Part shown: positions 6,099-42,198 of the stretch, piece after piece
Layout of the letters: every line of letters starts with the position of its first letter
Position numbering within the stretch: position 1 is the first letter of the stretch
Assembly (NCBI GenBank): GCA_964016885.1
Contig: OZ024740.1
Location: 224,936,001-225,000,000 of the forward strand
Direction: 5' to 3'
Source of the DNA: Eledone cirrhosa
Lineage: Eukaryota
Length of the DNA: 64,000 nt
Translations under genes and position numbers: made by a program
The notes under the pieces: model-generated
Database searches by the model: none
What the model saw: the letters and a program-made list of their open reading frames with translations, nothing else
Told to the model about the DNA's origin: nothing

Positions 6099-6991
6099 AT
6101 AGGAACCAGTAAGACCCCGACAGCTGAGCTCAAGCCGTTTCGACGGCTAATTCTGGACTAAATGAACATTTATCCTGGTATTTAAATAGCCGATCTTCTC
6201 AAGGGGTAATTCCATATATGGTCAAAGTGATTGTCAAAAATCAGTAGTAATTCTGTGGTTGCAAATTAGTAGGGGAGATGGTGGCTAAACCTGCCAGTAG
6301 GAGAAAGAGGGGAGGGGGTGGAGTAGACCCAATCAAGCGTTGGTAGTGCCAGCTACAGCTGGGCATGAGGTCAAAGAAGATACAGGGGAGGGGGAGGGGG
6401 AGGAAGTCGGAACGGTAGGTAGAACAATGGGGGGTAAAAATAGGAAAGAAAAAATACTGAGAGTGAAGAAAAGCAAATAAGTGTAAAGAAAAAATTAAAT
6501 TCTACGACCTAGGTGTCAGGCTATTGTTAGGCGAGAATAAAATAAAGAAAGAAAGAAAGAAGTAAATAAATAAATAAATAAATAAATAAGGAAATAAGTA
6601 AAAGAACTAGGTGGGACGAATTAGGCAAGGACCCTTTTAAGAGGTATAAGTACGTAAATGATACGGTGACTGGTCAACAAAAGGGGCCAAAATACTAAAG
6701 AGACTACCACGAAATAAACAATAAAGGTTTCCATCCCGGGCCAGCAACGACCCAGTGCAGCAAAGTGAACTTGTACGACATAATAATTCTGAGTCCCGGG
6801 AAAAATATATACTAATGCTAACTCTAAAAGATCTAAAACAAGCTACATGAAAGTTCGTACGAAATAAAGGTAGAATACGGAGAAATAAGTTCAGAATCCA
6901 CCCCGCCCAGAAGAAAAGCGAAGCAAGAAATACTGAAACGAAAAAATAAGGCATAAGTGCCACTAAGAAATATAGAGGGCACAGAGAATAG
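6099..6991 (-). repeat. Inverted pLTR copy (left arm)
   Basis: Reverse complement of 8859..9751, with mirror coordinates summing to 15850. ORF 6637..6963(-) translates identically to the C-terminal 108 aa of 8833..9213(+). Confidence 0.95.
6114..6207 (-). ncRNA. Type I hammerhead ribozyme, U3-A8 variant (mirror copy)
   Basis: Exact reverse complement of 9643..9736. Confidence 0.8.
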
Positions 6992-6996
6992 AGGGC

Positions 6997-8544
6997 ACAG
7001 ACATAGGGAGAATCAGCAAAAAAATCCTAGACCGCGTGATACCAAAAGTCAAGCAACACACCCGACTTAGCCTATGGATCAACACCCAGGAAGTAATCTC
7101 CTGGTTCAGCAATATGGAGGATAAACGAGAAACTAAATTCATACAGTTCGACATAGAGAGCTACTATGCTTCAATCACCTTACCGCTACTTACTGCCGCC
7201 TTGGACTTCGCCGAAACACTCGTGCCCATCACCGACCAGGAAAGAAAAATCATCCTCCACGCCAGGAAGACAGTCTTACTCTTTGACGACTCTAAATGGA
7301 TAAAAAGAGCTCCCGACTCACCCTTCGACGTCAGCATGGGCGCCACGGATTCGGCGGAGGTCACTGATCTTATAGGATTATTCCTAATAGCCAAACTCAC
7401 TGATATGTTTCCTGCATTCGGTGGTGGATTGTACCGTGATGATGGGCTCCTTACCCTTAAAGGGTACAACCCCAGTAGTACAGATCGGGTCCGGAAACAA
7501 TTAATCAGATTCTTCCGCGACTGGGGATTTAAAATAACCCTACAAACGTCCCTGACCCGAGTAAACTTCCTGGACGTAACCCTCGACCTCGAAAACGACC
7601 TGTACTACCCATACAGGAAACCTAATGACAATCTGCACTACATCCACCGCCGATCAAACCATCCTAGGAACATCACAAACAACCTGGTCAAAAACATCTC
7701 CCTCCGCATATCCCGTTTGTCAGCTAATGAGCGGATATTCGATGAACATGCGCCTTATTACAACCAGGCCCTCAAGCGGAGTGGTTTCCGGGAGGAAATA
7801 TCCTACTGTCCAGATCCCATTAGCGGAACCAGCAGGAGACACCGCCGCTCACGCAATGTAACATGGTTCAATCCTCCCCACAACGCAGAGGTGACTACTC
7901 CCATCGGGAAACTATTCTTTAGGCTCATTGAAAAACACTTCCCATTACAACACCGCTACCACAACATAATTAACAAAAATACCATCAAACTCTCTTACAG
8001 CACTACACCAAACTTCGCACAAAACATCGTCTCCTCTAACAACAAAAAACTCAACCCCGATGGCAGAAATAACCTAAATAGCAGTGGAGAACCGACCAGG
8101 AGGTGTAACTGCCCGGATAGATCTATTTGCCCACTCGACAATAGATGCAGAGACCGTAATGTGATCTACCAGTGCAACGTGAGGACGGATACCTCCAACA
8201 AAGCCTATATAGGACTTACCGCATGTGACTTCAAGACCCGGCTATACCAACATAGACATACCTTCCGAAACCCGGCCCGGCGTCACGCCACTACACTTTC
8301 GGGCCACATATGGGACCTCAAGGACAACAACATCACCTATGATCTCACTTGGAGATTACTGTCCAGAGCCAATTCTTACACGGGAGGACGCCGTCCGTGC
8401 AATTTATGCTCGGAGGAAACTTTACAAATGCTGTTTTCGACGGACCAACTCCTAAACAAGAAAGATGAACTGGTTACTGCATGTAAACATAGATTGCGTA
8501 GGACTTACCTCGCCCTCAAACCCCATAATGACCCGGGGGGGTAG
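6997..8544 (+). CDS. PLE reverse transcriptase plus GIY-YIG endonuclease, N-terminally truncated, otherwise uninterrupted
   Basis: RT motifs QFDIESYY, MGATDSAEV, GLYRDDGL and NFLDVTLDL. Linker CNCPDRSICPLDNRC. Endonuclease VIY...AYIGLT...FKTRLYQH and CNLCSEE. The frame extends upstream of GTG 7036 as TDIGRISKKILD. Confidence 0.93.
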   Translation, partial: TDIGRISKKILDRVIPKVKQHTRLSLWINTQEVISWFSNMEDKRETKFIQFDIESYYASITLPLLTAALDFAETLVPITDQERKIILHARKTVLLFDDSKWIKRAPDSPFDVSMGATDSAEVTDLIGLFLIAKLTDMFPAFGGGLYRDDGLLTLKGYNPSSTDRVRKQLIRFFRDWGFKITLQTSLTRVNFLDVTLDLENDLYYPYRKPNDNLHYIHRRSNHPRNITNNLVKNISLRISRLSANERIFDEHAPYYNQALKRSGFREEISYCPDPISGTSRRHRRSRNVTWFNPPHNAEVTTPIGKLFFRLIEKHFPLQHRYHNIINKNTIKLSYSTTPNFAQNIVSSNNKKLNPDGRNNLNSSGEPTRRCNCPDRSICPLDNRCRDRNVIYQCNVRTDTSNKAYIGLTACDFKTRLYQHRHTFRNPARRHATTLSGHIWDLKDNNITYDLTWRLLSRANSYTGGRRPCNLCSEETLQMLFSTDQLLNKKDELVTACKHRLRRTYLALKPHNDPGG

Positions 8545-8858: not shown

Positions 8859-9751
8859 CTATTCTCTGTGCCCTCTATATTTCTTAGTGGCACTTATGCC
8901 TTATTTTTTCGTTTCAGTATTTCTTGCTTCGCTTTTCTTCTGGGCGGGGTGGATTCTGAACTTATTTCTCCGTATTCTACCTTTATTTCGTACGAACTTT
9001 CATGTAGCTTGTTTTAGATCTTTTAGAGTTAGCATTAGTATATATTTTTCCCGGGACTCAGAATTATTATGTCGTACAAGTTCACTTTGCTGCACTGGGT
9101 CGTTGCTGGCCCGGGATGGAAACCTTTATTGTTTATTTCGTGGTAGTCTCTTTAGTATTTTGGCCCCTTTTGTTGACCAGTCACCGTATCATTTACGTAC
9201 TTATACCTCTTAAAAGGGTCCTTGCCTAATTCGTCCCACCTAGTTCTTTTACTTATTTCCTTATTTATTTATTTATTTATTTATTTACTTCTTTCTTTCT
9301 TTCTTTATTTTATTCTCGCCTAACAATAGCCTGACACCTAGGTCGTAGAATTTAATTTTTTCTTTACACTTATTTGCTTTTCTTCACTCTCAGTATTTTT
9401 TCTTTCCTATTTTTACCCCCCATTGTTCTACCTACCGTTCCGACTTCCTCCCCCTCCCCCTCCCCTGTATCTTCTTTGACCTCATGCCCAGCTGTAGCTG
9501 GCACTACCAACGCTTGATTGGGTCTACTCCACCCCCTCCCCTCTTTCTCCTACTGGCAGGTTTAGCCACCATCTCCCCTACTAATTTGCAACCACAGAAT
9601 TACTACTGATTTTTGACAATCACTTTGACCATATATGGAATTACCCCTTGAGAAGATCGGCTATTTAAATACCAGGATAAATGTTCATTTAGTCCAGAAT
9701 TAGCCGTCGAAACGGCTTGAGCTCAGCTGTCGGGGTCTTACTGGTTCCTAT
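8859..9751 (+). repeat. 3' pLTR region (right arm)
   Basis: Pyrimidine-rich 3' region that is duplicated in inverted orientation at 6099..6991. Confidence 0.95.
9643..9736 (+). ncRNA. Type I hammerhead ribozyme, U3-A8 variant with extended stem II
   Basis: acccc-TTGAGAA-ga(t)cggcta...tagccgtc-GAAA-cggct tgagctc agctg-TC-ggggt. All three stems pair and the triplet is GUC. Predicted cleavage is after 9731. Confidence 0.8.
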
Positions 9752-9827
9752 TACCCACTCTACTACCTCAAGTATTGAGTACTTTGGTGCGTTATGGTCC
9801 ACCTGGTTCCTTACCACATTTCCTTCG

Positions 9828-9872
<45 letters not shown>

Positions 9873-9880
9873 ATAGAAGG

Positions 9881-9931
9881 AGCTTCTACAGGACTAGTAC
9901 TGTTTCATTCAGATGAAATCTTCAGGAAGCT
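9881..9931 (-). ncRNA. Type I hammerhead ribozyme, canonical core
   Basis: Minus strand reads agcttc-CTGAAGA-tttc atct gaat-GAAA-cag tactagtc ctg-TA-gaagct. Stem I is a perfect 6 bp and the triplet is GUA. Confidence 0.88.
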
Positions 9932-10108
9932 GGGTGTCATCTTCAAGGAGGTATTGAGGTCGATTCTTGTTAGCATATTTTCTTGAGGATGGTTATAAGG
10001 GCACTAGGGTGTGCTTGGATACGTAGGTCCCGGGTTGAGTCGGGGATAACCACAGTAAGTAAGATACTCAATACATGGCAGAGTAAAATTTTTTTATTTT
10101 ATAGAAGG

Positions 10109-10152
10109 AGCTTCTACAGGACTAGTACTGTTTCATTCAGATGAAATCTTCA
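10109..10152 (-). ncRNA. Truncated second copy of the 9881 hammerhead
   Basis: Identical to 9881..9924 but cut by (TA)n, losing C3 and the 5' strand of stem I. Confidence 0.75.
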
Positions 10153-12760
10153 TATATATATATATATATATATATAATTAAGAGTAGTTTTCCGAAGCAG
10201 ATTGGAATGAATTATAGGTAGCTAAATTGCTCAATACATTACTAGAAAAGATATTTATTTTTATATGAATATATATATATATAAATCATCATCATCAACA
10301 TCATCGTTTAATGTCTATCTTCCATGCTAGCATGGGTTTATATATATATCCAGTATACCCTGTCCAGTGATAGTTTGTGTGCCACAGTAACTCATGCACC
10401 AAGTTCACACAGTTATGTGGTTGGCATTAACAAGTGCATCCACCTGTAGAAACCAAGCCAAAAGATAGATGAGATCATCTAACCTGACTAGTCTGATAAT
10501 GAAACAACCCATCTAACAACCCATGCAAGCATCAAAATAGAAGTGAAATGGTGTTGGTGATTATGATGCTGATGACAATGATAATGATGTAATAATGTAT
10601 TGTGATGATATTGTGATAATATATTTTGTAAAGTCCTTGAATTATATTGATACTATAAAAAATATATAGGAGGTTGGCTGATAGTGGCAATTGAAGTTGC
10701 TTTACAAGTTTTCCAGTTATGTTCTTGAGCAACCATCTTTTCCTGGTTACACATAGAATTGGGCAGCCTCCGGTAACTAACTGATTTATAAAAATTCAAA
10801 TAAAGATTTCAGTTATTGGGAAACTAACAATTCAAATATTAATTGCATTACCACAAGAATAGGCAATTAAGAAAAGAAGATAAATAAGCTCAAAAAATGT
10901 TATAATGAACATGCTAAAATATGAAATAAGTAGAAAACTATACATTACAATTCAAGAAATGATTTTAGGAATTGTGTTGCTGTGTCCAATGTGTTCAAAC
11001 ATGAAATGATTTGAAAGAACTTAAGAATTAAGATTAGCTCGCATAATCTATACAGCTGTTCTCTTCTAGATAGACTTAATAGAAGACTTTTAGTCATGAG
11101 AGACTTCAACTAAATAATTTTATTATCCGTTTTCAGATAGACAAAAAGACATCTTTGGAAATCTAATTGGTTATAAGAGTGAATAGAATTGAAAAAGCAC
11201 TGAAGAAATGAATGGGAGGAAAAATTATAGAGATGGATTTTAAAATGATGTAGGAGTATTAAAACATAACAATGATATCGAAGAATGTTAAAAACAAAAC
11301 ATCATCAATATCAGCCAGAATTTTATAGAAAAACTAGAATTGAAGAAAGAAAAATGAAAATAACTGGCAAATTGTTAATTTCTATTAACAATTGTGAGCA
11401 AGTAAAAGCAGAATGTTGTTTTAGAAAAGATTATTTAATTCAATGAAGCAGTAGTGTTGTAGCAGTAGTAAAGTAATAACATAATATCAAATTATTGAAA
11501 ATTTTCTGTGAAAGGAAACTTCCAAGATGGCTAGCTTTCACACAGCTCTCTAATGTTGTAGTGTTATTTGTGGATGAAATTAAACAGACGAATCTTATTT
11601 CACACGTCACAGTAGGAAGGATAATTTAATAAATTAAGTGAAGCATTTTCTATTTAGCATGTGAATTAGTCAATTTGATATGTTAATTAGGTCACTACAA
11701 GATTTGATCATATCGAATTTAAAGACTACTTGTTAAGTAAAATGGATCCTGATTCTTAATTAACGAAGTAGCACCTGAGTGCAGACACCGTGATAAGGAA
11801 TGTAAATACCATCACCCTCAACATGAAGGTGAGAAACGAGAAGACCAAGCAATAAGAAGTCCAAAAATATATTTCAGCATGAAAGGTGACACAAAAGAAC
11901 TGACAGAAATAATTATTTAGCTTTCAATCATCACCATCATCAGTCCAACCATTCTTAACTCCATCATTATCATCAGCAACATCAAATATTTTCTACCTTA
12001 TTTCCAAAGGCAAATATTGATTAAGAGAGTTAATATTTTCCCTCAGTTTGCTCCATCACTTTCATTGATTTTTCTCTTTTTCACCTTGCTTAATTTCACG
12101 GTATGGTAACATGTTTATACTCCACCTCTCCAGTTAATCATACTTCTCAAATAGTTTGTTGAAAAATATTCATGTGAATGTAATAAATAATAACGAAAAT
12201 GTCGATTTTTTTTTCCGATTACGAACATGTTACAATAAGTTTTAATAAATAGCTGTAAAAATCAACATGATTTGGCAAATCAATTTATTAGTATTGTATT
12301 TCATGATATGGAAACATATCGAGATATGTTCAATGTATGCAATGTACTTCAGACTTCAGACTTTGTATATACATAAAACAAAGTTTTATTAGACTTTAAA
12401 GAAATAGTGTGGAACAAGAAGAACATAGGCTATAAAATAAAAATGAATAACAAAATTTTTGCAAAGTATGAAACTAGATAGAGGAATGGAATTTTATGAT
12501 AATATTTGTCATCTTGTTAACCCTTTTGATACTAACCCACCTGAAAATGTCTCTGTTTCTCTGATACAATACTGTCTGTTTTAAAGTGTTCCTAATTATA
12601 TTAGAACCTTTCCTTATAATTTCTTGTACAAATATATTTCTTAATTCTCTAAAAAGGCTTAATAATGGGAAAATGTTAAGTATTTTACTAGATCAGTCCA
12701 TAAATTGAACCACATAATATATTTCTTTTGAAATAACATAGCAAAAAGGTAAAAGAAATA

Positions 12761-19312: not shown

Positions 19313-19735
19313 TGTAGAAGATCAGGCCACCTAGTTTTGACTTTGGAGGCAGTCGATTAACTACCCTTAGTTCTGACGTCAGTAGCTGAATATACTGGCT
19401 TTTCAACTTTGTATGTTGATGCGAGCAGATGCGTTTCACTGTGACGAAACAGCGATATTACACCATGCGGTCACGGGATATTTGAACACCGCCACGAAAT
19501 GATAATTACGAATTACCAATCATGGAGTAACTGATATGATAATCTGTTTTGTTTATTGCCCTGATTAAAATGCTCATGTACATATAATTTCGAGGTATGT
19601 TCTTTTTGCTTAATTGTTTACCTACACCTAACAACAAATAGAAGAGATGTTCTAGCAGCCAAGCTAGGGAAACGAACTCCCCTCCAAATCGTAAAACAAC
19701 GCAGCTTTCTAAAATTGGTGACCATCTCTCCGAAA
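19313..19735 (+). repeat. 5' LTR
   Basis: Starts TGTAGAAG and is a direct repeat of 23866..24287 with scattered substitutions. Confidence 0.92.
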
Positions 19736-19736
19736 G

Positions 19737-19752
19737 TGGTGACCCCGACGTG
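19737..19752 (+). promoter_or_regulatory. Primer binding site, tRNA-Trp
   Basis: TGGTGACCCCGACGTG lies 1 nt after the LTR and is complementary to the eukaryotic tRNA-Trp 3' end. Confidence 0.85.
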
Positions 19753-20197
19753 TTGCTATACACAGCCTTCTAAAAAAGACTTCTAAAAACTTCTAGAGAA
19801 ACATAGAAAAAGAAATTGACGAAACTAATATTTTATTTCTTGCAACTATTCGAAAATAACGAAATTGAAATTTGTTTGTTTAACAGAAAAAAAAAAGAAT
19901 TGACAATGGCTGACTGGTCCGCCAATTGTCTTTCTTCTTCGAAATGCAGCCATCTGATTGGCTAAGACGCAACATGTGATGCCATCTCCTTCTCCAATTA
20001 AAAAACAAAACAAAAAAAAAACATTTAACTTTTCTGCCTTGAATTATTGTGACTTGTCGATTCGGGAATTTGCATTTCTTCTTTCTTCATGGATGTTGAA
20101 GGAAATTTGTGTAGTTTTCCCGTTGTTCCAAACATCTAACGCGCGTTGCATTTCTTTACTTGGATATCATTTAGTATTTTTTATGTAGAACTGATAC

Positions 20198-23100
20198 ATG
20201 CTAATTATGAGTAGTCCTAATTTACCTGCCTCTTCTTCAATTTTGAACCAGCCCGTCTCGACACACGAGGATTCCATGTTAAAAGCTATTGACGCTTTGA
20301 CGCATCAAGTCGCTCGGTTATGCAGAGAGAATAGGCCGTATTCCCGGCGGCCTAGGAGTCGTTCGCGTTCTTTCGCGACTCCACGTCGGCATACTACTTC
20401 GCCCGCCAGCAATCCATTATTTTGCTGGTATCATGGCACCTTCGTGGAGAAGGCAAAACATTGTCGGCCTCCATGTAAATATTAAGCTTGGGGAAATGTA
20501 GATCAGAGTCACTAAAGGCGGCAAGTGAACTCTGCGAGACACAACAGAACCGCCATTTCTTCATAGAGGACCTCCTGTCTGGAAGATCTTTCTTCGTAGA
20601 TACGGGAGCTTCCTGTAGCATTTGGCCAGTGAACTGTGTTAAAGAAACTCCTCCTGAGTCATCAATGAATCTACAAGCTGTCAATCATTCGCCAATACGG
20701 ACTTTTGGACAAATCTCGCTTCCTCTGCAATTCAGAAATCTTCGACGAGAATTCAAATGGATTTTTACGGGTGATGACCTACCATACCCGATCTTGGGAG
20801 CGGATTTTCTACACCATTTTGCATTAACGGTGGACGTCTGTGGCCGACGCCTAGTAGACGACATTACTGGCTTCTCTCTTCGTGTCCAGAAAGCTAATTT
20901 TCCAACAGTAAGCCCGACCTTTTTCATCGCTAATGCTGGGAATCCCTATCATGCATTGATGAATTCTTTCCCACAGCTTACTCAGGGAAATTTTCGAGTT
21001 GTCGAACCGACTCACACAACGGAGCATTTTATCTCTACAACTGGCGCTCTAGTGTTCTCACGTCCTCGTCGCTTGCCTGCTGACAAATTGAAGGCAGCAC
21101 GGTCCGAGTTCGACCACATGCTGCAGCTTGGCATAATTCGCCCTTCTACGAGCCCTTGGGCTTCTCCGTTACACATGGTACCCAAGACTTCTGGAGACCC
21201 ACTGGGGATTATAGGAAGTTAAATGCTATAACTGTCCCGGATAGATACCCTATTCCACACCTGCAAGATTTTGCATCGTCGTTGCAGGGATGTAAAATTT
21301 TCTCGAAGCTTGATTTGGTGCGGGCCTATCATCAGATTCCTGTCAGGAAAGAAAATATTCCGAAAACGGCCATTACGACTCCATTTGAATCATTCGAATT
21401 TCTTACCATGCCTTTCGGACTTAGGAATGCTGCTAGCACCTTTTAACAGTTCGTGGATGAGGTCACTCGTGGTTTAGACTTCGTCTACACTTATATTGAT
21501 GATCTGCTTATTGCTAGTTCCTCAAGAGAAGAACACATACGTCATTTGAATCTTTTGTTTTGTCGACTCAAGGATTACAGTGTTCAAATAAATCCCACAA
21601 AATGTGTTTTCGGTGCGTAATCACTGAATATTTTAGGTCATGTCATTGACTCTGACGGTATTCGACCTATTCCTGAGAGAGTTAAAGCTATAGAGGATTT
21701 GCCTCCACCAACCTCACTCCGTCAGTTGCGCCAATTCTTGGGGCTAATTAATTTTTATAGGCGGTTTGTGCCTAATTGTGCTAAGCTACTCTTCGCTTTG
21801 ACGGAAATTTTGAAAAATTGCCGAAAGAAAAATAAAGACATTTCTTTGAATGAAACTCAGCTCGAGGATTTTGATAATGCGAACATTTCTCTAGCCAATG
21901 CATCTTTGCTGGCTCACCCAGTGTCCAATGCTAATCTTTCACTTTGTGTTGATGCGTCGGATACTGCCGTGGGCGCAGTTTTGCAACAAAGTAGGAATGA
22001 TCAACAGCAACCGTTGGAATTTTTCTGCAGGAAGCTGAAACCTGGCGAAACCCGCTACAGCACCTTTGGACGGGTGTTGTTAGCTATATACTTATCGGTG
22101 AAGCATTTTTCGCGCATCCTTGAAGGAAGAACGTTCACCATCTTCACGGACCACAACCCATTGACATTCGCCTTGCAAGCAAAGGCCGACAAATACTCGC
22201 CCAGAGAAACTAGACATGTCGACCTCATCTCTCAATTTACTAATGATATTCAACATATTCCGGGTTCTATGAATACAGCGGCCGACGCCCTGTCTCGTTT
22301 GCCTATTGCTTCGATCTCGTCGTCCGATGATATAGATTTGAATCGCTTGGCAGCCGATCAGCCTACCCTCGAATCATTTGATGTTACATCGTCTGAATTT
22401 GTGAATTGCAGGATGAAATACCTACCATTATCGGCCGCAGACGGACGGATCCTCTGCGACGTCTCTTTGGATGCGCCACGCCCTTTTGTTCCGTTGAACC
22501 ATCGTCGAACTGTGTTTCTTGTTTTACACGGCATTTCACATCCAGGATCTTCTGCCACAGTAAAACTCATAACGGCTAGATTCTTCTGGCCAAATATGAG
22601 ACGTGATATTACTGTTTGGTGCCGTTCCTGTGTTGCTTGCCAGAAATCAAAAGTTCACAGGCATATTAAGACTCCTCTAGTTACTTTTAGTAACCCGGAC
22701 GCTCGGTTTCGCCACATTCATGTGGACATCGTGGGATCTTGGCCAATCAGCGGTGGTCATAATTAGATATTGACTGTTATCGATCGTTTTTCGTGATGGC
22801 CTGAAGCCATCCCCTTGAAAGATATCACTCCTGAGACGACAACGCGTGCCCTTGTGTCTGGATGGATCGCTCGATATGGAGTACCAACGTCAATTACCAC
22901 AGACCGTGGAAGGTATAAAGTAACGAAAATCATCGGCGCTAAATGCATCCGAGCGACTGCATATCATCCTGCCTCTAATGGAATGGTGGAGCGCTTCCAC
23001 CGACAACTAAAAGCCGCCCTACGGACTTCTCCTGACTCTACGCGTTTGAGCGAGTACCTCCCTATTGTGTTGTTGGGGATTCGGTCAACAATAAAGGAGG

Positions 23101-23612
23101 ACCTTGGGTTCTCCCCGGCCGAATTATTGCATGGTGCTCTTCTAGCGTTACCTGGCAAATGCTTTCCCCTGCCGATCTTGCTGCACAGGATCCGCTTTCC
23201 TACGTATCCCGTCTGCGTTCCTATTTTCAAGACCTGCCGCCGATGGAAGCAAACTGTAAAATCTGCAGTCCCGAGGGATATTGCCTTGTGGACCCATGTG
23301 GTCGTGAGTAACGATGCTGTGAGACCACCTCTCACACAACCGTACTCTGGACCCTACCGTGTATTAGCTCGTTCCGAGAAACATTTCACTGTAGACATTA
23401 AGGGTTCCAGAGAGACGATTTCTATTGATCGACTCAAACGAGCACATTTGGACACAGACGCTATCACACCTAAGCCACAAATGCCCCCGTATTTTGCTTT
23501 CGCACACACACCTGATTCTTCGCCCCCTCCCCCTATCACCAAGATATAAGACTACGACCCGTTCCGGTCGGAGGGTTCATTGGCCCAAAAGTCTGTGTAG
23601 CACTATATTTTA
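20198..23612 (+). pseudogene. gag C-terminus plus pol (protease, RT, RNase H, integrase), frameshifted
   Basis: Gag knuckle CWYHGTFVEKAKHCRPPC. Protease [24 protein letters not shown] and YIDD (~21492). RNase H VDASD and FTDHNPL. Integrase HGISHPG..CVAC, HVDIVG, TDRG, NGMVERFHR and GPY. Multiple stops and frameshifts. Confidence 0.92.
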
Positions 23613-23851
23613 AAGCTGTTATTGTGCGGCGCTTTAATCCTGTATTTTCTATTTGAAGTATTTGAACTTTTAAAAATTGTATTTACATTTTATTATAATT
23701 TTTTTTTTTTTCGTTCTTGCATGCTTGTTTCATATGTTCTTTTGAAATTTGTTATGCCCTTCATGCTCGGTTGGGCTGATTGCTCCTTGGTTTGGGGTTT
23801 TTGCTACATACATGGTCCGATGAACCGATTTTTATTTCTTTTTCTAAAAAT

Positions 23852-23865
23852 CTGGTGGGAGGCCA
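23852..23865 (+). promoter_or_regulatory. Polypurine tract
   Basis: ctggtgggaggcca lies immediately 5' of the 3' LTR. Confidence 0.65.
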
Positions 23866-24287
23866 TGTAGAAGATCACGCCACCTAGCTTTGACCTTGGA
23901 GGCAGTCGATTATCTGCCCTTAGTTCAGACGTCAGTAGCTGAATATACTGGCTTTTAAACTTTGTATGTTGATGCGAGCAGACGCGTTTCACTGTGGCGA
24001 AACAGCTATATTGCACCATGCGGTCACGGGATAATTGAACACCGCCACGAAATCCTAATTACGTATTACCAATCATGGAGCAACTGCTATGATAATCTGT
24101 TTTGTTTATTGTTCTGATTAAAATGCTCATGTACATATAATATCGAGGTATGTTCTTTTGCTTAATTGTTTAACTACACCTAACACCAAATAGAAGAGAT
24201 GTTCTACCAGCCAAGCTAGGGAAACGAACTCCCCTCTAAATTGTAAAACAACGCAGCCTTCTAAAATTGGTGACCATCTCTCCTAAA
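23866..24287 (+). repeat. 3' LTR
   Basis: Direct repeat of the 5' LTR, followed by TSD AGTC. Confidence 0.92.
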
Positions 24288-28355: not shown

Positions 28356-28405
28356 GCTTTCCTGATGATTTCCTTCGAATGAAACAGTTCTAGTCCTGCA
28401 GAAGC
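28356..28405 (+). ncRNA. Hammerhead of the 9881 family with mutated cleavage triplet (GCA)
   Basis: gctttc-CTGATGA-tttc cttc gaat-GAAA-cag ttctagtc ctg-CA-gaagc. The downstream tail to ~28490 aligns with 10025..10090(-). Confidence 0.75.
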
Positions 28406-30432
28406 CATTTATATATTACACTTTGTATATACTCTACTAATGTATTATGTACATTATTTACAGTGGTTACCCCCGATTGGACCTGGGACATACACACACA
28501 CATATATATGTACATATATATATATATATTTATGTATGTATGTATGTATGTATGTACATATATGCCATGCCAGGTTTCTGCTTACTACTGGAACAATGTA
28601 AATCAGTACAACCTGCTTCATGGTCAAGTGATCAGTGACCAATCTAACTCCCCAAAGAGACCCTAGTCTGGTGAGGAGGGTAAGTGTAAACACACAAGTA
28701 CAAAAGCAAGATCTGTTAAAAGGATGGATGAACTTCTGAGAGTCAAGGACCATCCACTCCAACAATGGGTTAAATAGCCTCAACAACCCAGAATTAGCCA
28801 AGCCTAGTGAATACAACACAAAATGGTGGAGGGCAATCAGGGAAGGGTTCCTCCAACAGAAGAAGGCCTTGGATTGGATTGGATATATGTATGTGTGTGT
28901 ATGTGTGTGCATATGTGTTGGGTGTGTGTGTGTGTGCTTATGTGTTGTGTGTGAGTGAGTACATTCATGTGTGTGTGTACGTGTAGTATATTACTGTTTG
29001 TTGCAGGCATCTTCATAGTGAAAATGTTTGAAGAAGACTATATTTGCTTATGTTATTTATAACCAAGGGGTCCTGTAATTTAACACTCCAAGAAGATGAA
29101 CATTATATAACCATACATCTGAACACTCACATTTCTTTTTACATCTGTCAACTTAGCAAGGTTCAAGTTAAAATTATACAAGGTGGCAAATTGGTAGAAT
29201 AATTAGAGCATTGTACAGATGTCTCGTGGTATTTGTCATGATGTTCTGAGCTCAAATTTCACCACAGTCATCTTTGTCTTCTAGAATGTTGGGTCGATAA
29301 AATAAAGTACATGTTCAGGGTGGAGGAATGGTGTGATTGTGAGGGCATTGAACAAGATGCCTTTTGGCATTTGCTTTTTGTGTCCACAAGCCACTATGCC
29401 CTACTTGGGTTGTACACTTAATTCATTGTTTAGTTCAACTCTACTACCTATAGCTGAGCCCACTCTTTACAAGCATTTGTGTTAGCTTTCAAGTTTGAGA
29501 ATGCTTTTCTTCCTTCATTCCATCAGTCTTAGAAACCCCGAAAAGTATCATAGGCACAAACATACCCTTTGTAATTAAACAGTAAAAAAACAAATAACAT
29601 TGAAAATATACAACCTCAAACTCAAGTCTTAAGTGGCCTGCAAAAGCCATGGGCAGAATCCCTCTCCACTGACTAAGCTATAAACAATTGTTATAAAGAA
29701 GCTTTTCAGCTGTTAACCAGTTATACATGTTTGTTTTCTGCCAAGAGTTGTGACCGGTAGATAGTACCAGCAATGGAAAGACCAATGGAAACATGGTTTC
29801 TTTGGTCCAATTTGACATGGTCCACCCCACTCAGCAAGCGAATAAGGTCTGGGATCATATTTATCGATCAGAGTGATCGATCTTGCCTGTGTGTATCCAG
29901 TTTAGAATAGATACACTGCATCTCTAGTTGTCATAAAAGTTGGTGTCAGGAAAGTCATCCGACCGTAATATTTCATCAGAAAGGATTCAATAATGAGTAT
30001 GAAACTTGTCATGTAGCTTGCCAGACTAATTCCCACTGTAACAGGAAAATAGATTTAAGAGGCATATTATGTTGTTGTTGATATCATTTACAAATTTTTC
30101 TACCTACTTTAAGCTGTAATGGATTATTTAGAATCAAATAGATACCAGAAAAAGTTGTTTTTTTGTTTTTTTTAAATATTGCAAAACACCTAGTGCATAC
30201 TTCTTTTTAAAATTCTACATGCAGATATTCAAATTAAAAAATAAACCCAGATCTATAAACCAAAACACACACAGACATATAAATATATACACACACATAT
30301 TTATATATACACATATTTGTATATACACATATCTATATCTCTCTCTCTATATATATATACATATCTATATATGCGTGTGTAAGTATATATATCATCATCA
30401 TCATTGATTTACATCCAAATATATATAATATA

Positions 30433-37498: not shown

Positions 37499-37693
37499 TT
37501 ATATATATAACGTCCTGTAAGTTGTGTATTGAATATCTTGCAGTATATGTGTGTGTGTATGTATAGCTAGCTGTAGAAATGATGCCTTAAAAGAGTTGAA
37601 AGGGCTCTTCAGTTATGACAGAAACATGAAACCCGCTCTAGTGCTTCAAACTCTTGGTACGAAGGAAAACAAACATTAAATGATAATTATATA

Positions 37694-39647: not shown

Positions 39648-39813
39648 TAGATAGGTAAATATACACGGGTGTGTATGATTGTGTATAGAAGATTATATTA
39701 ATAAGAGGAATTCCAACTTTCTCTGATTTACTCGTTTTATTTACAATCCTTTAAAATATATAATGGTATTATAATGAAATAGTATGATAGAATATTAAAT
39801 TCTAAGTGTTAAT

Positions 39814-39852
39814 TGAACAAGTACTTTCATGCTTTCGCAATCTTCAGGTTCA
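39814..39852 (-). ncRNA. Minimal type I hammerhead (left arm of palindrome)
   Basis: Exact reverse complement of 39930..39968. Confidence 0.85.
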
Positions 39853-39929
39853 TAATATATGGTGACTGTCAAGTTTGTAATTTTCAACTGACAGTTGAAA
39901 ATTGCAAACTTGACTGTCACCATATATTA

Positions 39930-39968
39930 TGAACCTGAAGATTGCGAAAGCATGAAAGTACTTGTTCA
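39930..39968 (+). ncRNA. Minimal type I hammerhead (right arm of palindrome)
   Basis: tgaac-CTGAAGA-ttgc gaaa gcat-GAAA-gtac-TT-gttca. Stem III region is the palindrome AAGTACTT. Confidence 0.85.
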
Positions 39969-40080
39969 ATTAACACTTAGAATTTAATATTCTATCATAC
40001 TATTTCATTATAATACCATTATATATTTTAAAGGATTGTAAATAAAACGAGTAAATCAGACAAAGTTGGAATTCCTCTTA

Positions 40081-40115
<35 letters not shown>

Positions 40116-40209
40116 GTGGAATACTGGAAGGTAATATCCGTGGTGGTAGAGCACTCAGTCCAAGGGACGAGTTAGGTAGATGTGGTTACACAATAGTTAG
40201 TTCACCATA

Positions 40210-40249
40210 CTGAGAACAATTGTTTCACATTAGCGGATCTTCAGTTCGG
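40210..40249 (-). ncRNA. Mirror copy of the 42067 hammerhead with damaged stem I
   Basis: ccgaa-CTGAAGA-tccgctaatgt-GAAA-caattg-TT-ctcag. Confidence 0.7.
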
Positions 40250-40281
40250 GATGGGCATGGTTATAGGAACAGGAAGGACAA

Positions 40282-41899
40282 GGAACTTGCCGCCGCCCTT
40301 AAGGTAGATAAGAAGCTACAATCTCTAGCTAAGCGGGAGGCGTTCCTCACCCTGAAAGATCACAAGATAGACTTTACTTCTAACCCTAAATGTAGACTAA
40401 TAAACCCGGCACGCACAGATATGGGACTAGTCAGTAAGACCATACTTAGAAACATAGTTAAGACCATTAGGACCAAGTCCAACCTGCCATATTGGGAGAA
40501 CAGCGACTCCGTAATTAATGGTTTAACTCCTTAAAATAAAAAAAGCGAAGTTCACACAGTTTGACATTGTCGATTTTCTCCCGTCGATCTCAGAGACCCT
40601 GTTAAACAAAGCGTTGGACTTCGCTACCACTTATACCACCGTCGATGGTTTAGACAGGGAAATCATCGCTCACTGCCGGAAAACCCTCCTCTTCAACGAC
40701 GGAGTAGCCTGGGCAAAGAAGTCTGCATCTTCAGACCTGTTCGACGCCTCCATGGGATCGTTTGACACTGCTTTTATCTTAGACATATTACGTGTTAGAT
40801 TCCCGGACTTCCACACTGGAATATACCGTGACGATGGACTGAGTTTATCGAGCCATAAAAGTGGTCACGACCTCAACCGGTTTAAAAAAGACTTAGCTTC
40901 TACTTTCAATGAGTTAGGCCTTGGGATAACAGTAGCCACAAACCTCTCTAGCGATTTCTTAGACATTAATTTAGACCTTCGCACCCACACCCACAGATCC
41001 TTCCACAAGCTAAACGAGAAACTTAATTACATCCACAAGGACTCATGCCTCCCTCCCACTGTTTTTAGAATTTTCGTTAAGAATATCAGTACTAGAATCT
41101 CAAACCTCTCCTCTAATAAGGCTATCTTTGACAGGGCGGCACCCTACTATAACACGGCGTTGACTAACAGCGGCTTCTCACAACCCATCACTTACTCTCC
41201 CACTAGCAACAACACATTTAAGAAAAGTAAGCGTAACAATAGGCAAACTATTTGGTTCTCTTCTCCTTTCTCACTCAACGTAAAAACCAATGTAGGAAAA
41301 ACATTTCTAGCCCTCTTAGATAGACACTTTCCCATAGGTCATAAATACCGCCCCATCTTTAACCGACACAAAGTTAAACTAGGACACTCCTGCGCTAAGA
41401 ACATGAAGGCCCACATCACCAGCACCCCTAGGAGTAACACCCACCAGGGTTCTTTTGCCGTAAGCCTGAAGCTTGCCCTCTTCAACAGCAATGCAACACA
41501 TTAACTGCAATCTATGAAGCTGTGGTCACTTCCAACCGACCAAACGAACCCCAGGAGGTCAAATCCTATGTGGGCATGGTGGAGGGCCAATTCAAGGAAC
41601 GTTTCCTGAACCACCAGTCTACCGTCAGACACCCGGACATACGTTCATCCACGGAACTTGCGTGCCACGTATGGTCCCTCAAGGACTAAAGTACAGACTA
41701 CTCCATCCAATGGAAAGCCATCACTAAGTCGAAACCATACGCAAGAGGAAATCCGACGTGTGGCTTATGTATTGACGAACGAATAACTATTCTAAAGAGA
41801 TTACGGAATAGTGATTGCCTAAACACAAGAAGTGAATTTTTCACACGTTGTCCACACGTCGCCAAATACCTATTACATAACTACAAGGCTCCGGGCTGA
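40282..41899 (+). pseudogene. PLE RT plus GIY-YIG ORF with frameshifts and stops
   Basis: TLKDHK..CRLINPA, QFDIVDF, GIYRDDGL, DFLDINLDL, CRKPEACPLQQQC, IYEA...SYVG...FKERFLNH and CGLCIDE. Confidence 0.9.
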
Positions 41900-42066
41900 T
41901 TCTTTGTATTTTTATTTTATTTTCAACCTAAAAACTTTTCGGGCTTTCGCAGTTATCTCCCTTACACCTCTCGGACGCAGTCTAGTATTGCCTGTGTGAA
42001 GTGACCGGGTTTCTGCGCATGCGCGTTCGTACGGTTGTCATTCCTGTTCATATAACCATGCCCATC

Positions 42067-42106
42067 CCGAGCTGATGATCTGCTAAAGTGAAACAATTGT
42101 TCTCGG
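42067..42106 (+). ncRNA. Minimal type I hammerhead ribozyme in the PLE 3' end
   Basis: ccgag-CTGATGA-tct gctaa agt-GAAA-caattg-TT-ctcgg. Stem I extends with ccat/atgg and stem III is the palindrome CAATTG. Confidence 0.88.
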
Positions 42107-42134
42107 TATGGTGAACTAACTGTTGTGTAACCAC

Positions 42135-42198
<64 letters not shown>

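What the first reader, a model, noticed from the sequence alone, without database searches (positions are those of the whole stretch)
9732..10114. GTATTGAGTA lies exactly 40 nt after the cleavage site in two unrelated ribozyme elements
Seen: in the autonomous PLE the predicted cut follows 9731 and GTATTGAGTA starts at 9772. In the short element (minus strand) the cut follows 10115 and GTATTGAGTA starts at 10074. Both gaps are 40 nt, and both motifs are preceded by ACTCT, although the ribozymes differ in sequence. Degenerate versions occur 41 nt after the 28356 HHR (GTATTATGTA) and in the second PLE's tail (GACTGAGTG, 40152..40160, minus). Orphan versions lie near (TA)n at ~10229 and ~37527. 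Inference: a conserved cis signal for RT/EN recognition, priming or transcription that would let short elements use the PLE enzyme.
Basis: partly seen in the sequence, partly recalled or inferred. Interest (0 to 1): 0.75.

Follow-up and report, generated by a model that had tools for sequence, protein, structure and literature searches.

The report
Twin start hairpins of Hydra-Penelope retrotransposons
The 10-base motif is one arm of a small bulged hairpin whose pairing is conserved across Hydra-type Penelope jumping genes, usually in two copies, with insertion ends mostly lying 5 to 11 bases before each copy, so it likely tells the element's reverse transcriptase where to start copying; the '40 bases' spacing is not general.

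Summary
The two 10-mers and both 40-nt gaps are real, but the reading needs repair. The elements are not unrelated: both are pieces of autonomous Hydra-clade Penelope-like elements (proteins 50% identical), and the 'short element' is a rearranged end of the second family. The gap is 40 nt only in these two lineages (53-114 in nine other families here, 51-70 in 27 metagenome families). What is conserved is a hairpin, RCUC-stem-loop-stem-U(N) bulge-GAGY-RCU, with compensatory changes, usually present twice (H1, H2) between hammerhead and start codon. Insertions have two fixed outer ends, mostly 5-11 nt before H1 or H2; 46 of 48 head-to-head insertions have one of each, and either arm can be the longer. 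Best explanation (0.65): the protein likely binds each hairpin on the RNA and starts reverse transcription at a UA patch just 5' of it, which would explain the one-sided 'tail' and the inverted copy. Binding is untested; one family has scattered ends, and an ORF-less tandem family has the hairpin without such ends. I found no description in print (seven searches). This scan noted the hairpin before on other DNA; I reached it before looking.

The parts
6099..6995 (-). Inverted, 5'-truncated arm of family A (897 bp); its outer end is the 'short' end, 8 nt before H1, abutting (TA)n
6976..8544 (+). 5'-truncated RT + GIY-YIG ORF of Hydra-clade family A (residues 203-717 of the 717-aa protein in tandem copies)
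9643..9736 (+). Predicted type I hammerhead of A: U3-A8 core variant, long stem II, cut after 9731 (cleavage untested)
9749..9751 (+). TAT patch where short ends join (TA)n; inferred priming site, 8 to 5 nt before H1
   Evidence: 25 of 29 short ends at -8
9757..9783 (+).
9752..9828 (+). 'Tail' of A; long end at 9828. H2 starts 6 nt further on in tandem copies and is not part of this insertion
   Evidence: (49 of 58 long ends at this base)
9829..9869 (.). (TA)n target tract between the A and B insertions
9871..10152 (-). Rearranged fragment of autonomous family B: truncated hammerhead, tail, 5' UTR, first 12 codons (ATG at 9976), then a jump back to a second pLTR piece that ends at the short end
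9881..9931 (-). Intact predicted hammerhead of B (cut after 9887), followed by (TA)n and no motif
10109..10152 (-). Truncated hammerhead of B (cut-equivalent after 10115); C3 and the 5' arm of stem I are missing
   Evidence: read from sequence
10063..10084 (-).
10001..10014 (-). Divergent H2 of B (GCAC ... TA GTGC), 7 nt after the family's long-end site at 10022
10229..10248 (-). Possible decayed hairpin in a 94-bp piece between two (TA)n runs; no relative found in my loci
28362..28450 (+). Decayed end of a B-related subfamily: hammerhead with GCA at the cut and a broken H1 (28431-28450)
40113..40281 (-). Long-ended arm of a second Hydra element (family D): cut after 40215, H1 at 40172-40150 with a one-base U bulge
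40268..42139 (+). Short-ended arm of the same D insertion, about 1.9 kb, ten times longer than the long-ended arm
37526..37535 (+). One-mismatch match without hairpin; treated as chance

Best explanation
The motif is the 3' arm of a bulged hairpin conserved in Hydra-clade Penelope-like elements, usually in two copies after the hammerhead, and it likely acts on the RNA as the site where the element's protein docks to start reverse transcription a few bases 5' of each copy. SHOWN: the hairpin and its covariation; two copies; two fixed insertion ends, mostly 5-11 nt before H1 and H2; one end of each kind per head-to-head insertion; a TA-phased patch at -8 to -3 of H1; either arm can be the longer. 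INFERRED: the protein nicks both strands of (TA)n; each 3' end pairs with the UA patch beside a bound hairpin; the start before H2 copies H1 and gives the 'tail', the start before H1 gives the tail-less inverted arm; the two cDNAs are joined in the middle. MORE SPECULATIVE: the U(N) bulge before G-C/A-U pairs would form a U.A-U triple and an arginine sandwich as in HIV TAR, read by a conserved arginine such as those of the N-terminal R-x-R-W-K/R motif. The 10/10 identity and the 40-nt gap of A and B come from invariant positions, the commonest variants and kinship.
For: Enrichment: in 80 stretches not used to write the descriptor, 40 of 98 hits also had a 2-nt bulge and RCY, against 0-4 in 10 shuffles. 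Covariation with no pairing used for selection: H1 found by sequence anchors in 27 of 35 metagenome families; first two upper pairs paired in 27 and 26 of 27, shuffle maximum 25, 0 of 5000. On 28 sequences 97.9% of cells paired, 4 of 7 pairs change on both sides, slid controls 20-62% (rows chosen from descriptor hits, so it leans to the structure). G-U type 6 against A-C type 1 on the sense strand. Seen by eye in 4 of 6 published Hydra consensi. Ends: modal gap to H1 8 (A), 6 (D), 8 (F), 5-7 (H), 6 (I), 9 (K), 7-11 (E, by reference); to H2 6, 7, 8, 8, 6, 6 in six families; 6-11 in 7 metagenome cases. 46 of 48 head-to-head pairs are one short + one long, 21 of 22 in unselected stretches. Short arm longer in 8 pairs, long arm in 5, so neither arm is a fold-back copy of the other. 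TATATA phase at -8: 3.44 against 2.37, 0 of 5000 shuffles. The hairpin that marks an end is absent from the inserted DNA at that end. Two internal RT starts bounding the tail, and cutting and extension of both strands, were shown in vitro for a Poseidon PLE (PMC11167929). R37 and W38 are 100% and 98% conserved in 117 proteins.
Against: No binding, cleavage or RT data. Short ends of family B scatter from 3 to 20 nt before H1, mode 20. H2 is divergent in B (GCAC/GTGC) and D (TCTC, about 95-nt loop, A bulge), and its upper stem shows no significant covariation in 14 metagenome cases. An ORF-less tandem family has a canonical hairpin, yet its ends fall 94-109 nt after the hairpin start and none at -8. 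A Neptune-type family has two paired ends without any hairpin, so the geometry does not need this structure in other clades. Folding the 150 nt after the cut gives H1 of A a probability of 0.02, because its 5' arm pairs with the 3' arm of H2, and 0.33 for B; 7 of 27 metagenome H1 score 0.5 or less. 8 of 35 metagenome families and 22 of 33 genome hammerhead families fail the descriptor, most of the latter of undetermined clade. TA microhomology blurs each end by up to 3-7 nt. Shuffle controls ignore kinship.
Confidence: 0.65

Rival explanations
1. The hairpin is a 5' UTR element for translation, RNA stability, packaging or transcription, and insertion ends fall beside it only because a UA-rich patch there pairs with the (TA)n target.
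For: Both copies lie between hammerhead and start codon. The TA-phased patch alone could fix ends. B ends scatter; the ORF-less tandem family has the hairpin without adjacent ends; a Neptune-type family has paired ends without it. Penelope has an internal promoter (PMC2377424, abstract only).
Against: These UTRs hold other TA-rich stretches that are not used; ends keep a narrow gap to two separate hairpins in families whose cut-to-H1 distance runs from 25 to 68 nt. An ORF-less element keeps the hairpin with compensatory changes, which translation does not explain.
Confidence: 0.15
2. The signal is read in DNA by the GIY-YIG endonuclease (extruded hairpin or the near-palindromic AGYRCT), and the ends are cut sites made when a transposition intermediate is resolved.
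For: The D. virilis Penelope endonuclease needed the tail for recognition (as reported in PMC11167929); Craig et al. ascribe the tail to endonuclease resolution (PMC8557442). GAGYRCT is near-palindromic.
Against: The marking hairpin is missing from the inserted DNA at its own end; G-U beats A-C 6 to 1 on the sense strand (small numbers); the short arm is the longer one in 8 pairs, which needs an independent template.
Confidence: 0.14
3. One reading: a linear 10-mer at a fixed 40 nt from the ribozyme cut, shared by unrelated autonomous and short elements.
For: Exact 10-mer at 40 nt in 39 A and 22 B copies; a third lineage has the exact 10-mer.
Against: Gaps of 53-114 nt in nine other genome families and 51-70 nt in 27 metagenome families; five of the ten positions vary with their partners; A and B are related and both autonomous.
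Confidence: 0.04

Closest known systems
Hydra clade of C-terminal-EN Penelope-like elements (Craig et al. 2021, PMC8557442; section 11, passages and supplement parts 1, 2, 52, 53 of 59 read)
   Same: RWK/R, DKT, CxCX5C, CxxC and CxH motifs, hammerhead, (TA)n targets, tandem and inverted copies, one-sided tail.
   Different: The passages I read describe no conserved hairpin; tails here are about 65-110 nt, not 30-40; A has a U3-A8 core with long stem II; the A unit is 3531 bp against 'generally <3 kb'.
Poseidon element PAc of Anolis (Frangieh et al. 2024, PMC11167929; main text read, supplements not seen)
   Same: Internal RT initiation at two sites that bound the tail; both target strands cut and extended; hammerhead upstream and not needed for insertion in vitro.
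   Different: There the starts lie in an AC-rich stem-loop inside the ORF without homology to the target; here ends lie in the 5' UTR, 5' of two repeated conserved hairpins, with TA microhomology. No conserved binding motif was defined there.
Arginine sandwich motif of HIV TAR and 7SK (Pham et al. 2018, PMC6189040; passages read)
   Same: Pyrimidine bulge (first base U) after a Watson-Crick pair and followed by G-C then A-U, the layout that forms U.A-U triples.
   Different: Here the bulge is on the 3' strand with the G-A-G helix at the base of the hairpin; no structure or peptide binding tested.
Non-LTR retrozymes as non-autonomous PLE derivatives (PMC7229834, passages; bioRxiv 10.64898/2026.07.22.740005, parts 1-3 of 5)
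   Same: The ORF-less 613-bp tandem family with a hammerhead-like fold fits this class.
   Different: Neither text, as far as read, names a cis signal for the PLE enzyme.
Protein-bound stem-loops that set RT register: telomerase template boundary element, hepadnaviral epsilon, R2 3' UTR (recalled, no call)
   Same: An RT-bound RNA structure fixes where copying starts or stops; the model's two best fold matches are telomerase RTs, weakly (TM 0.33-0.36).
   Different: No sequence or structural homology shown; two copies giving two starts on opposite target strands is not a feature of these.

Membership tests
Hydra-clade PLE (families A and B) | Single ORF, RT with C-terminal GIY-YIG endonuclease | tested here: met
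   717 and about 720 aa; YRDD at 348/346, YIG at 606/602
Hydra-clade PLE (families A and B) | RWK motif, DKT, no GxKF/Y | tested here: met
   RWR at 37 in both (K is the commonest residue in 117 relatives), DKT at 117/115, no GxKF/Y match
Hydra-clade PLE (families A and B) | CxCX5C linker; CxxC and CxH around the late catalytic residues; no CCHH | tested here: met
   CNCPDRSIC / CNCPDKTTC, CNLC / CDLC, CKH / CMH; absence of CCHH judged by eye
Hydra-clade PLE (families A and B) | Hammerhead in pLTR; insertion into (TA)n | tested here: met
   own descriptor scan, ends on (TA)n; Rfam reported no hammerhead; A has a U3-A8 core
Hydra-clade PLE (families A and B) | Generally under 3 kb | tested here: not met
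   A tandem period is 3531 bp; the paper gives this as a tendency, not a criterion
Hydra-clade PLE (families A and B) | Placement in an RT tree with named Hydra, Neptune and Nematis references | not tested
   the tree (quick search, midpoint root) held only my own loci
   matches the start of family B's ORF; first hammerhead truncated; junction not shared by the other 29 loci
Non-LTR retrozyme (613-bp tandem family, L377/L379) | ORF-less tandem units with a type I hammerhead | tested here: inconclusive
   613-bp unit, no Hydra protein match inside it, hammerhead-like MFE fold with U3-A8 core; missed by my scanner; cleavage and circles untested
Arginine sandwich motif | Bulged pyrimidine after a Watson-Crick pair, followed by G-C and A-U | tested here: met
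   bulge TT 34, TC 7, TA 2 of 43 (first U was part of the anchor); preceding pair formed in 41 of 43; CTC/GAG invariant
Arginine sandwich motif | Base triple and arginine intercalation | not testable with these tools
   needs NMR, cryo-EM or peptide binding
RT-initiation signal | Protein binds it and the start site follows it when moved | not testable with these tools
   only genomic end positions are available

The most novel reading that the evidence does not exclude
Hydra-clade PLEs carry a clade-wide pair of TAR-like arginine-sandwich hairpins, each docking one RT-endonuclease protomer, so that one RNA is primed twice by the two nicked strands of a (TA)n target; this double internal priming is the cause of the long-unexplained one-sided tail and inverted arm, and a single hairpin is the tag that lets ORF-less retrozymes use the enzyme.
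Probability: 0.35. Interest if true: 0.8.

Novelty: new variant of a known kind. Interest (0 to 1): 0.58.

Why it matters
How Penelope-like elements choose their start sites, and why insertions carry a tail at one end and an inverted copy at the other, is an open question (PMC8557442, PMC11167929). A 25-nt element with a measured gap to each end turns it into direct experiments (break, rescue, move). Family A has at least 40 identical ends and intact ORFs, so it is a good source for an in vitro system. The hairpin is also a handle for finding element boundaries and non-autonomous partners, and a microsatellite-targeted RT with a portable start signal is of interest for insertion tools. The elements themselves are a known clade.

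Tried and rejected
Rfam found no hammerhead or hairpin family in the window, only microsatellite-driven miRNA hits. Pfam gave nothing for the two window ORFs. First guess that the short element is a 228-nt retrozyme monomer: rejected. First guess of Naiad: rejected by motifs. I briefly counted 17 ends of the Neptune-type family J as lying 8 nt before a hairpin; that junction is unique in the genome and the hairpin belongs to another family, so all 12 J pairs were dropped from the 60 before the 46 of 48 count. In one search, 42 of 49 rows came from queries that themselves held TA runs and were dropped. The spread figure (mean 7.5, SD 1.4) left out family B and used one value for family E, so I quote ranges instead. 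One search was aimed at wrong coordinates and is not used. No RNA holder was listed; contigs of four other-organism runs showed (TA)n loose ends at the same two sites in two runs, not used as support for function. Dimer prediction for residues 1-480 gave no answer. Fold search gave only weak generic RT matches. In the Naiad and Chlamys consensi the first 7 places of each of four 7-mers showed no matching hairpin by eye; this is not exhaustive. Luense et al. (PMC5785218) is not held. Literature searches that found no description of the hairpin. Unseen supplements (PMC11167929 Figs S1-S2, the 2026 preprint, Repbase entries) could mention it.

Full report
Observation. GTATTGAGTA occurs twice in the window, at 9772 (+) and 10074 (-). 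A descriptor scan places a hammerhead cut after 9731, with a U3-A8 core and long stem II; the second cut-equivalent follows 10115. Both gaps are 40 nt, and 39 and 22 genomic copies agree. The side cases are weaker. The 28356 element is a decayed relative of the second element (72.5%). The second PLE's motif is 54 nt from its cut. One-mismatch matches are at chance level. The hammerhead at 10115 has lost C3 and half of stem I.

What the elements are. Tandem copies of the long element (family A, period 3531 bp) encode a 717-aa RT-GIY-YIG protein. The 'short element' matches the pLTR, tail, 5' UTR and first 12 codons of a second autonomous family, B. The proteins are 50% identical over 701 aa. 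Both carry RWR, DKT, CxCX5C, CxxC and CxH, the marks of the Hydra clade in Craig et al. (section 11). In a quick tree of 83 RT fragments all 20 genome rows fall on one side of a branch (SH-aLRT 95), with A and B at an unresolved fork and 56% identical. They are kin.

The conserved feature. I scanned 132 evenly spaced 10-kb stretches. Behind many hammerheads I saw RCTC, a short variable stem, a T(N) bulge, GAGY and RCT. The descriptor did not require a 2-nt bulge or RCY; in the 80 stretches fetched after it was conceived, 40 of 98 hits had both, against 0-4 in 10 shuffles. By eye it is present in 4 of 6 published consensi (coral, two sea cucumber, copepod variant). A scan of metagenomes gave 78 loci in 59 clusters; 35 had a hammerhead and 100 nt behind it. 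Using sequence anchors only, H1 was found in 27, and its first two upper pairs were paired in 27 and 26 of 27 (0 of 5000 shuffles each), the third in 20 (5 of 5000). The base pair is G-C there and A-U in many genome families. Shuffles ignore kinship, but slid controls on 28 rows fell from 98% to 20-62%. G-U outnumbers A-C 6 to 1 on the sense strand. Energy folding is mixed: 16 of 27 metagenome H1 score above 0.85, but H1 of A only 0.02 in context, since it can pair with H2.

The spacing. Of 43 hammerhead families in my loci, 22 had enough sequence and no match and 10 were too short; one of the 22 has a Neptune-type ORF (my reading of its motifs), one has the hairpin in other copies, and the rest are unassigned.

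Two hairpins, two ends. A second copy follows 55-83 nt after the first in 14 of the 27 metagenome families and in six genome families with tandem copies, canonical in four and divergent in B and D. Insertions end at two sites. Short ends lie before H1: 25 of 29 at 8 nt in A, 8 of 10 at 6 nt in D, modes of 5-11 in five more families, but scattered from 3 to 20 in B. Long ends lie 6, 7, 8, 8, 6 and 6 nt before H2. Seven metagenome ends lie 6-11 nt before a hairpin. The gap holds a TA-phased patch (0 of 5000 shuffles). Of 48 head-to-head insertions, 46 have one end of each kind (after dropping family J). Of those 46, the short-ended arm is longer in 8, the long-ended arm in 5, 26 are near-symmetric, 6 undetermined and 1 without a detected repeat. 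The window's second PLE is such a case: a 1.9-kb short-ended arm and a 170-bp long-ended arm. Neither arm can then be a fold-back copy of the other.

Mechanism. The hairpin that marks an end is not in the inserted DNA at that end, so it most simply acts on the template. I infer that the protein binds each hairpin, nicks (TA)n on both strands, pairs each 3' end with the UA patch and copies away from the hairpin. The H2 start copies H1 and yields the tail; the H1 start yields the tail-less inverted arm. This matches the two internal starts and two-strand extension shown for a Poseidon element (PMC11167929), though there the starts lie in the ORF without homology to the target. The bulge layout equals that of the arginine sandwich in TAR and 7SK (PMC6189040), and R35, R37 and K/R39 are conserved; this link is speculation. 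A confident model of the protein (pLDDT 93) gave only weak RT matches, telomerases first.

Against. No biochemistry; scattered ends in B; divergent H2 in B and D and no significant covariation of its upper stem; an ORF-less 613-bp tandem family with a canonical hairpin whose ends fall 94-109 nt downstream and never at -8; a Neptune-type family with paired ends and no hairpin. These sustain a UTR-function rival (0.15) and a DNA-level endonuclease rival (0.14).

Novelty. The elements, hammerheads, tails and inverted arms are known. Seven searches and the passages read in PMC8557442, PMC11167929, PMC4209133, PMC7229834, PMC6765202 and the 2026 preprint gave no description of the hairpin; unseen supplements and subscription papers may hold one. 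Other agents of this scan reported it, unreviewed, in this and other genomes; my note predates that look-up, and their agreement is not independent evidence. Verdict: observation partly confirmed, interpretation partly supported, new variant of a known kind, interest 0.58.

Noticed in passing
L377/L379 (613-bp unit), L358; relatives L101, L110, L119: ORF-less tandem family with a hammerhead-like fold (U3-A8 core, long stems II and III) and one canonical hairpin 128 nt after the predicted cut; upper stem covaries among relatives; several 5' junctions fall near the cut or 8-9 nt before the hairpin. Candidate non-autonomous partner of Hydra elements.
   Followed up: partly
window 9643-9736; L080, L078, L093, L166: Several hammerhead families have U3-A8 in place of C3-G8, some with stems II of 50-60 nt; Rfam misses all hammerheads of the window.
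   Followed up: partly
L121:4947-7612 and 11 more loci: Neptune-type family with two ends 60 nt apart, paired one of each per insertion, without the hairpin; it may use another signal.
   Followed up: partly
L061:4291-4390: In family A the 5' arm of H1 pairs well with the 3' arm of H2 and would close the whole tail into one hairpin; a possible switch.
   Followed up: no
L165:4329: A Neptune-type end is joined to a foreign tail exactly 8 nt before its hairpin; unique in the genome.
   Followed up: partly
window 39700-40080: Fold-back pair of hammerheads of another family directly beside the second PLE's long end.
   Followed up: no
window 19313-24287: Gypsy-type LTR retrotransposon, LTRs 423 bp and 93% identical, with protease, RT, RNase H and integrase frames broken into pieces.
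   Followed up: no
L078, L013, L180, L118: Hammerhead families without the hairpin share a tail with GTAAGT and a GTCACTACTCTAAAA-like block; one forms an 11-unit, 310-bp tandem array.
   Followed up: no
L233, L380-L394: H2 of family D is stretched to about 110 nt by an internal duplicated segment, yet long ends stay 8 nt before its start.
   Followed up: partly
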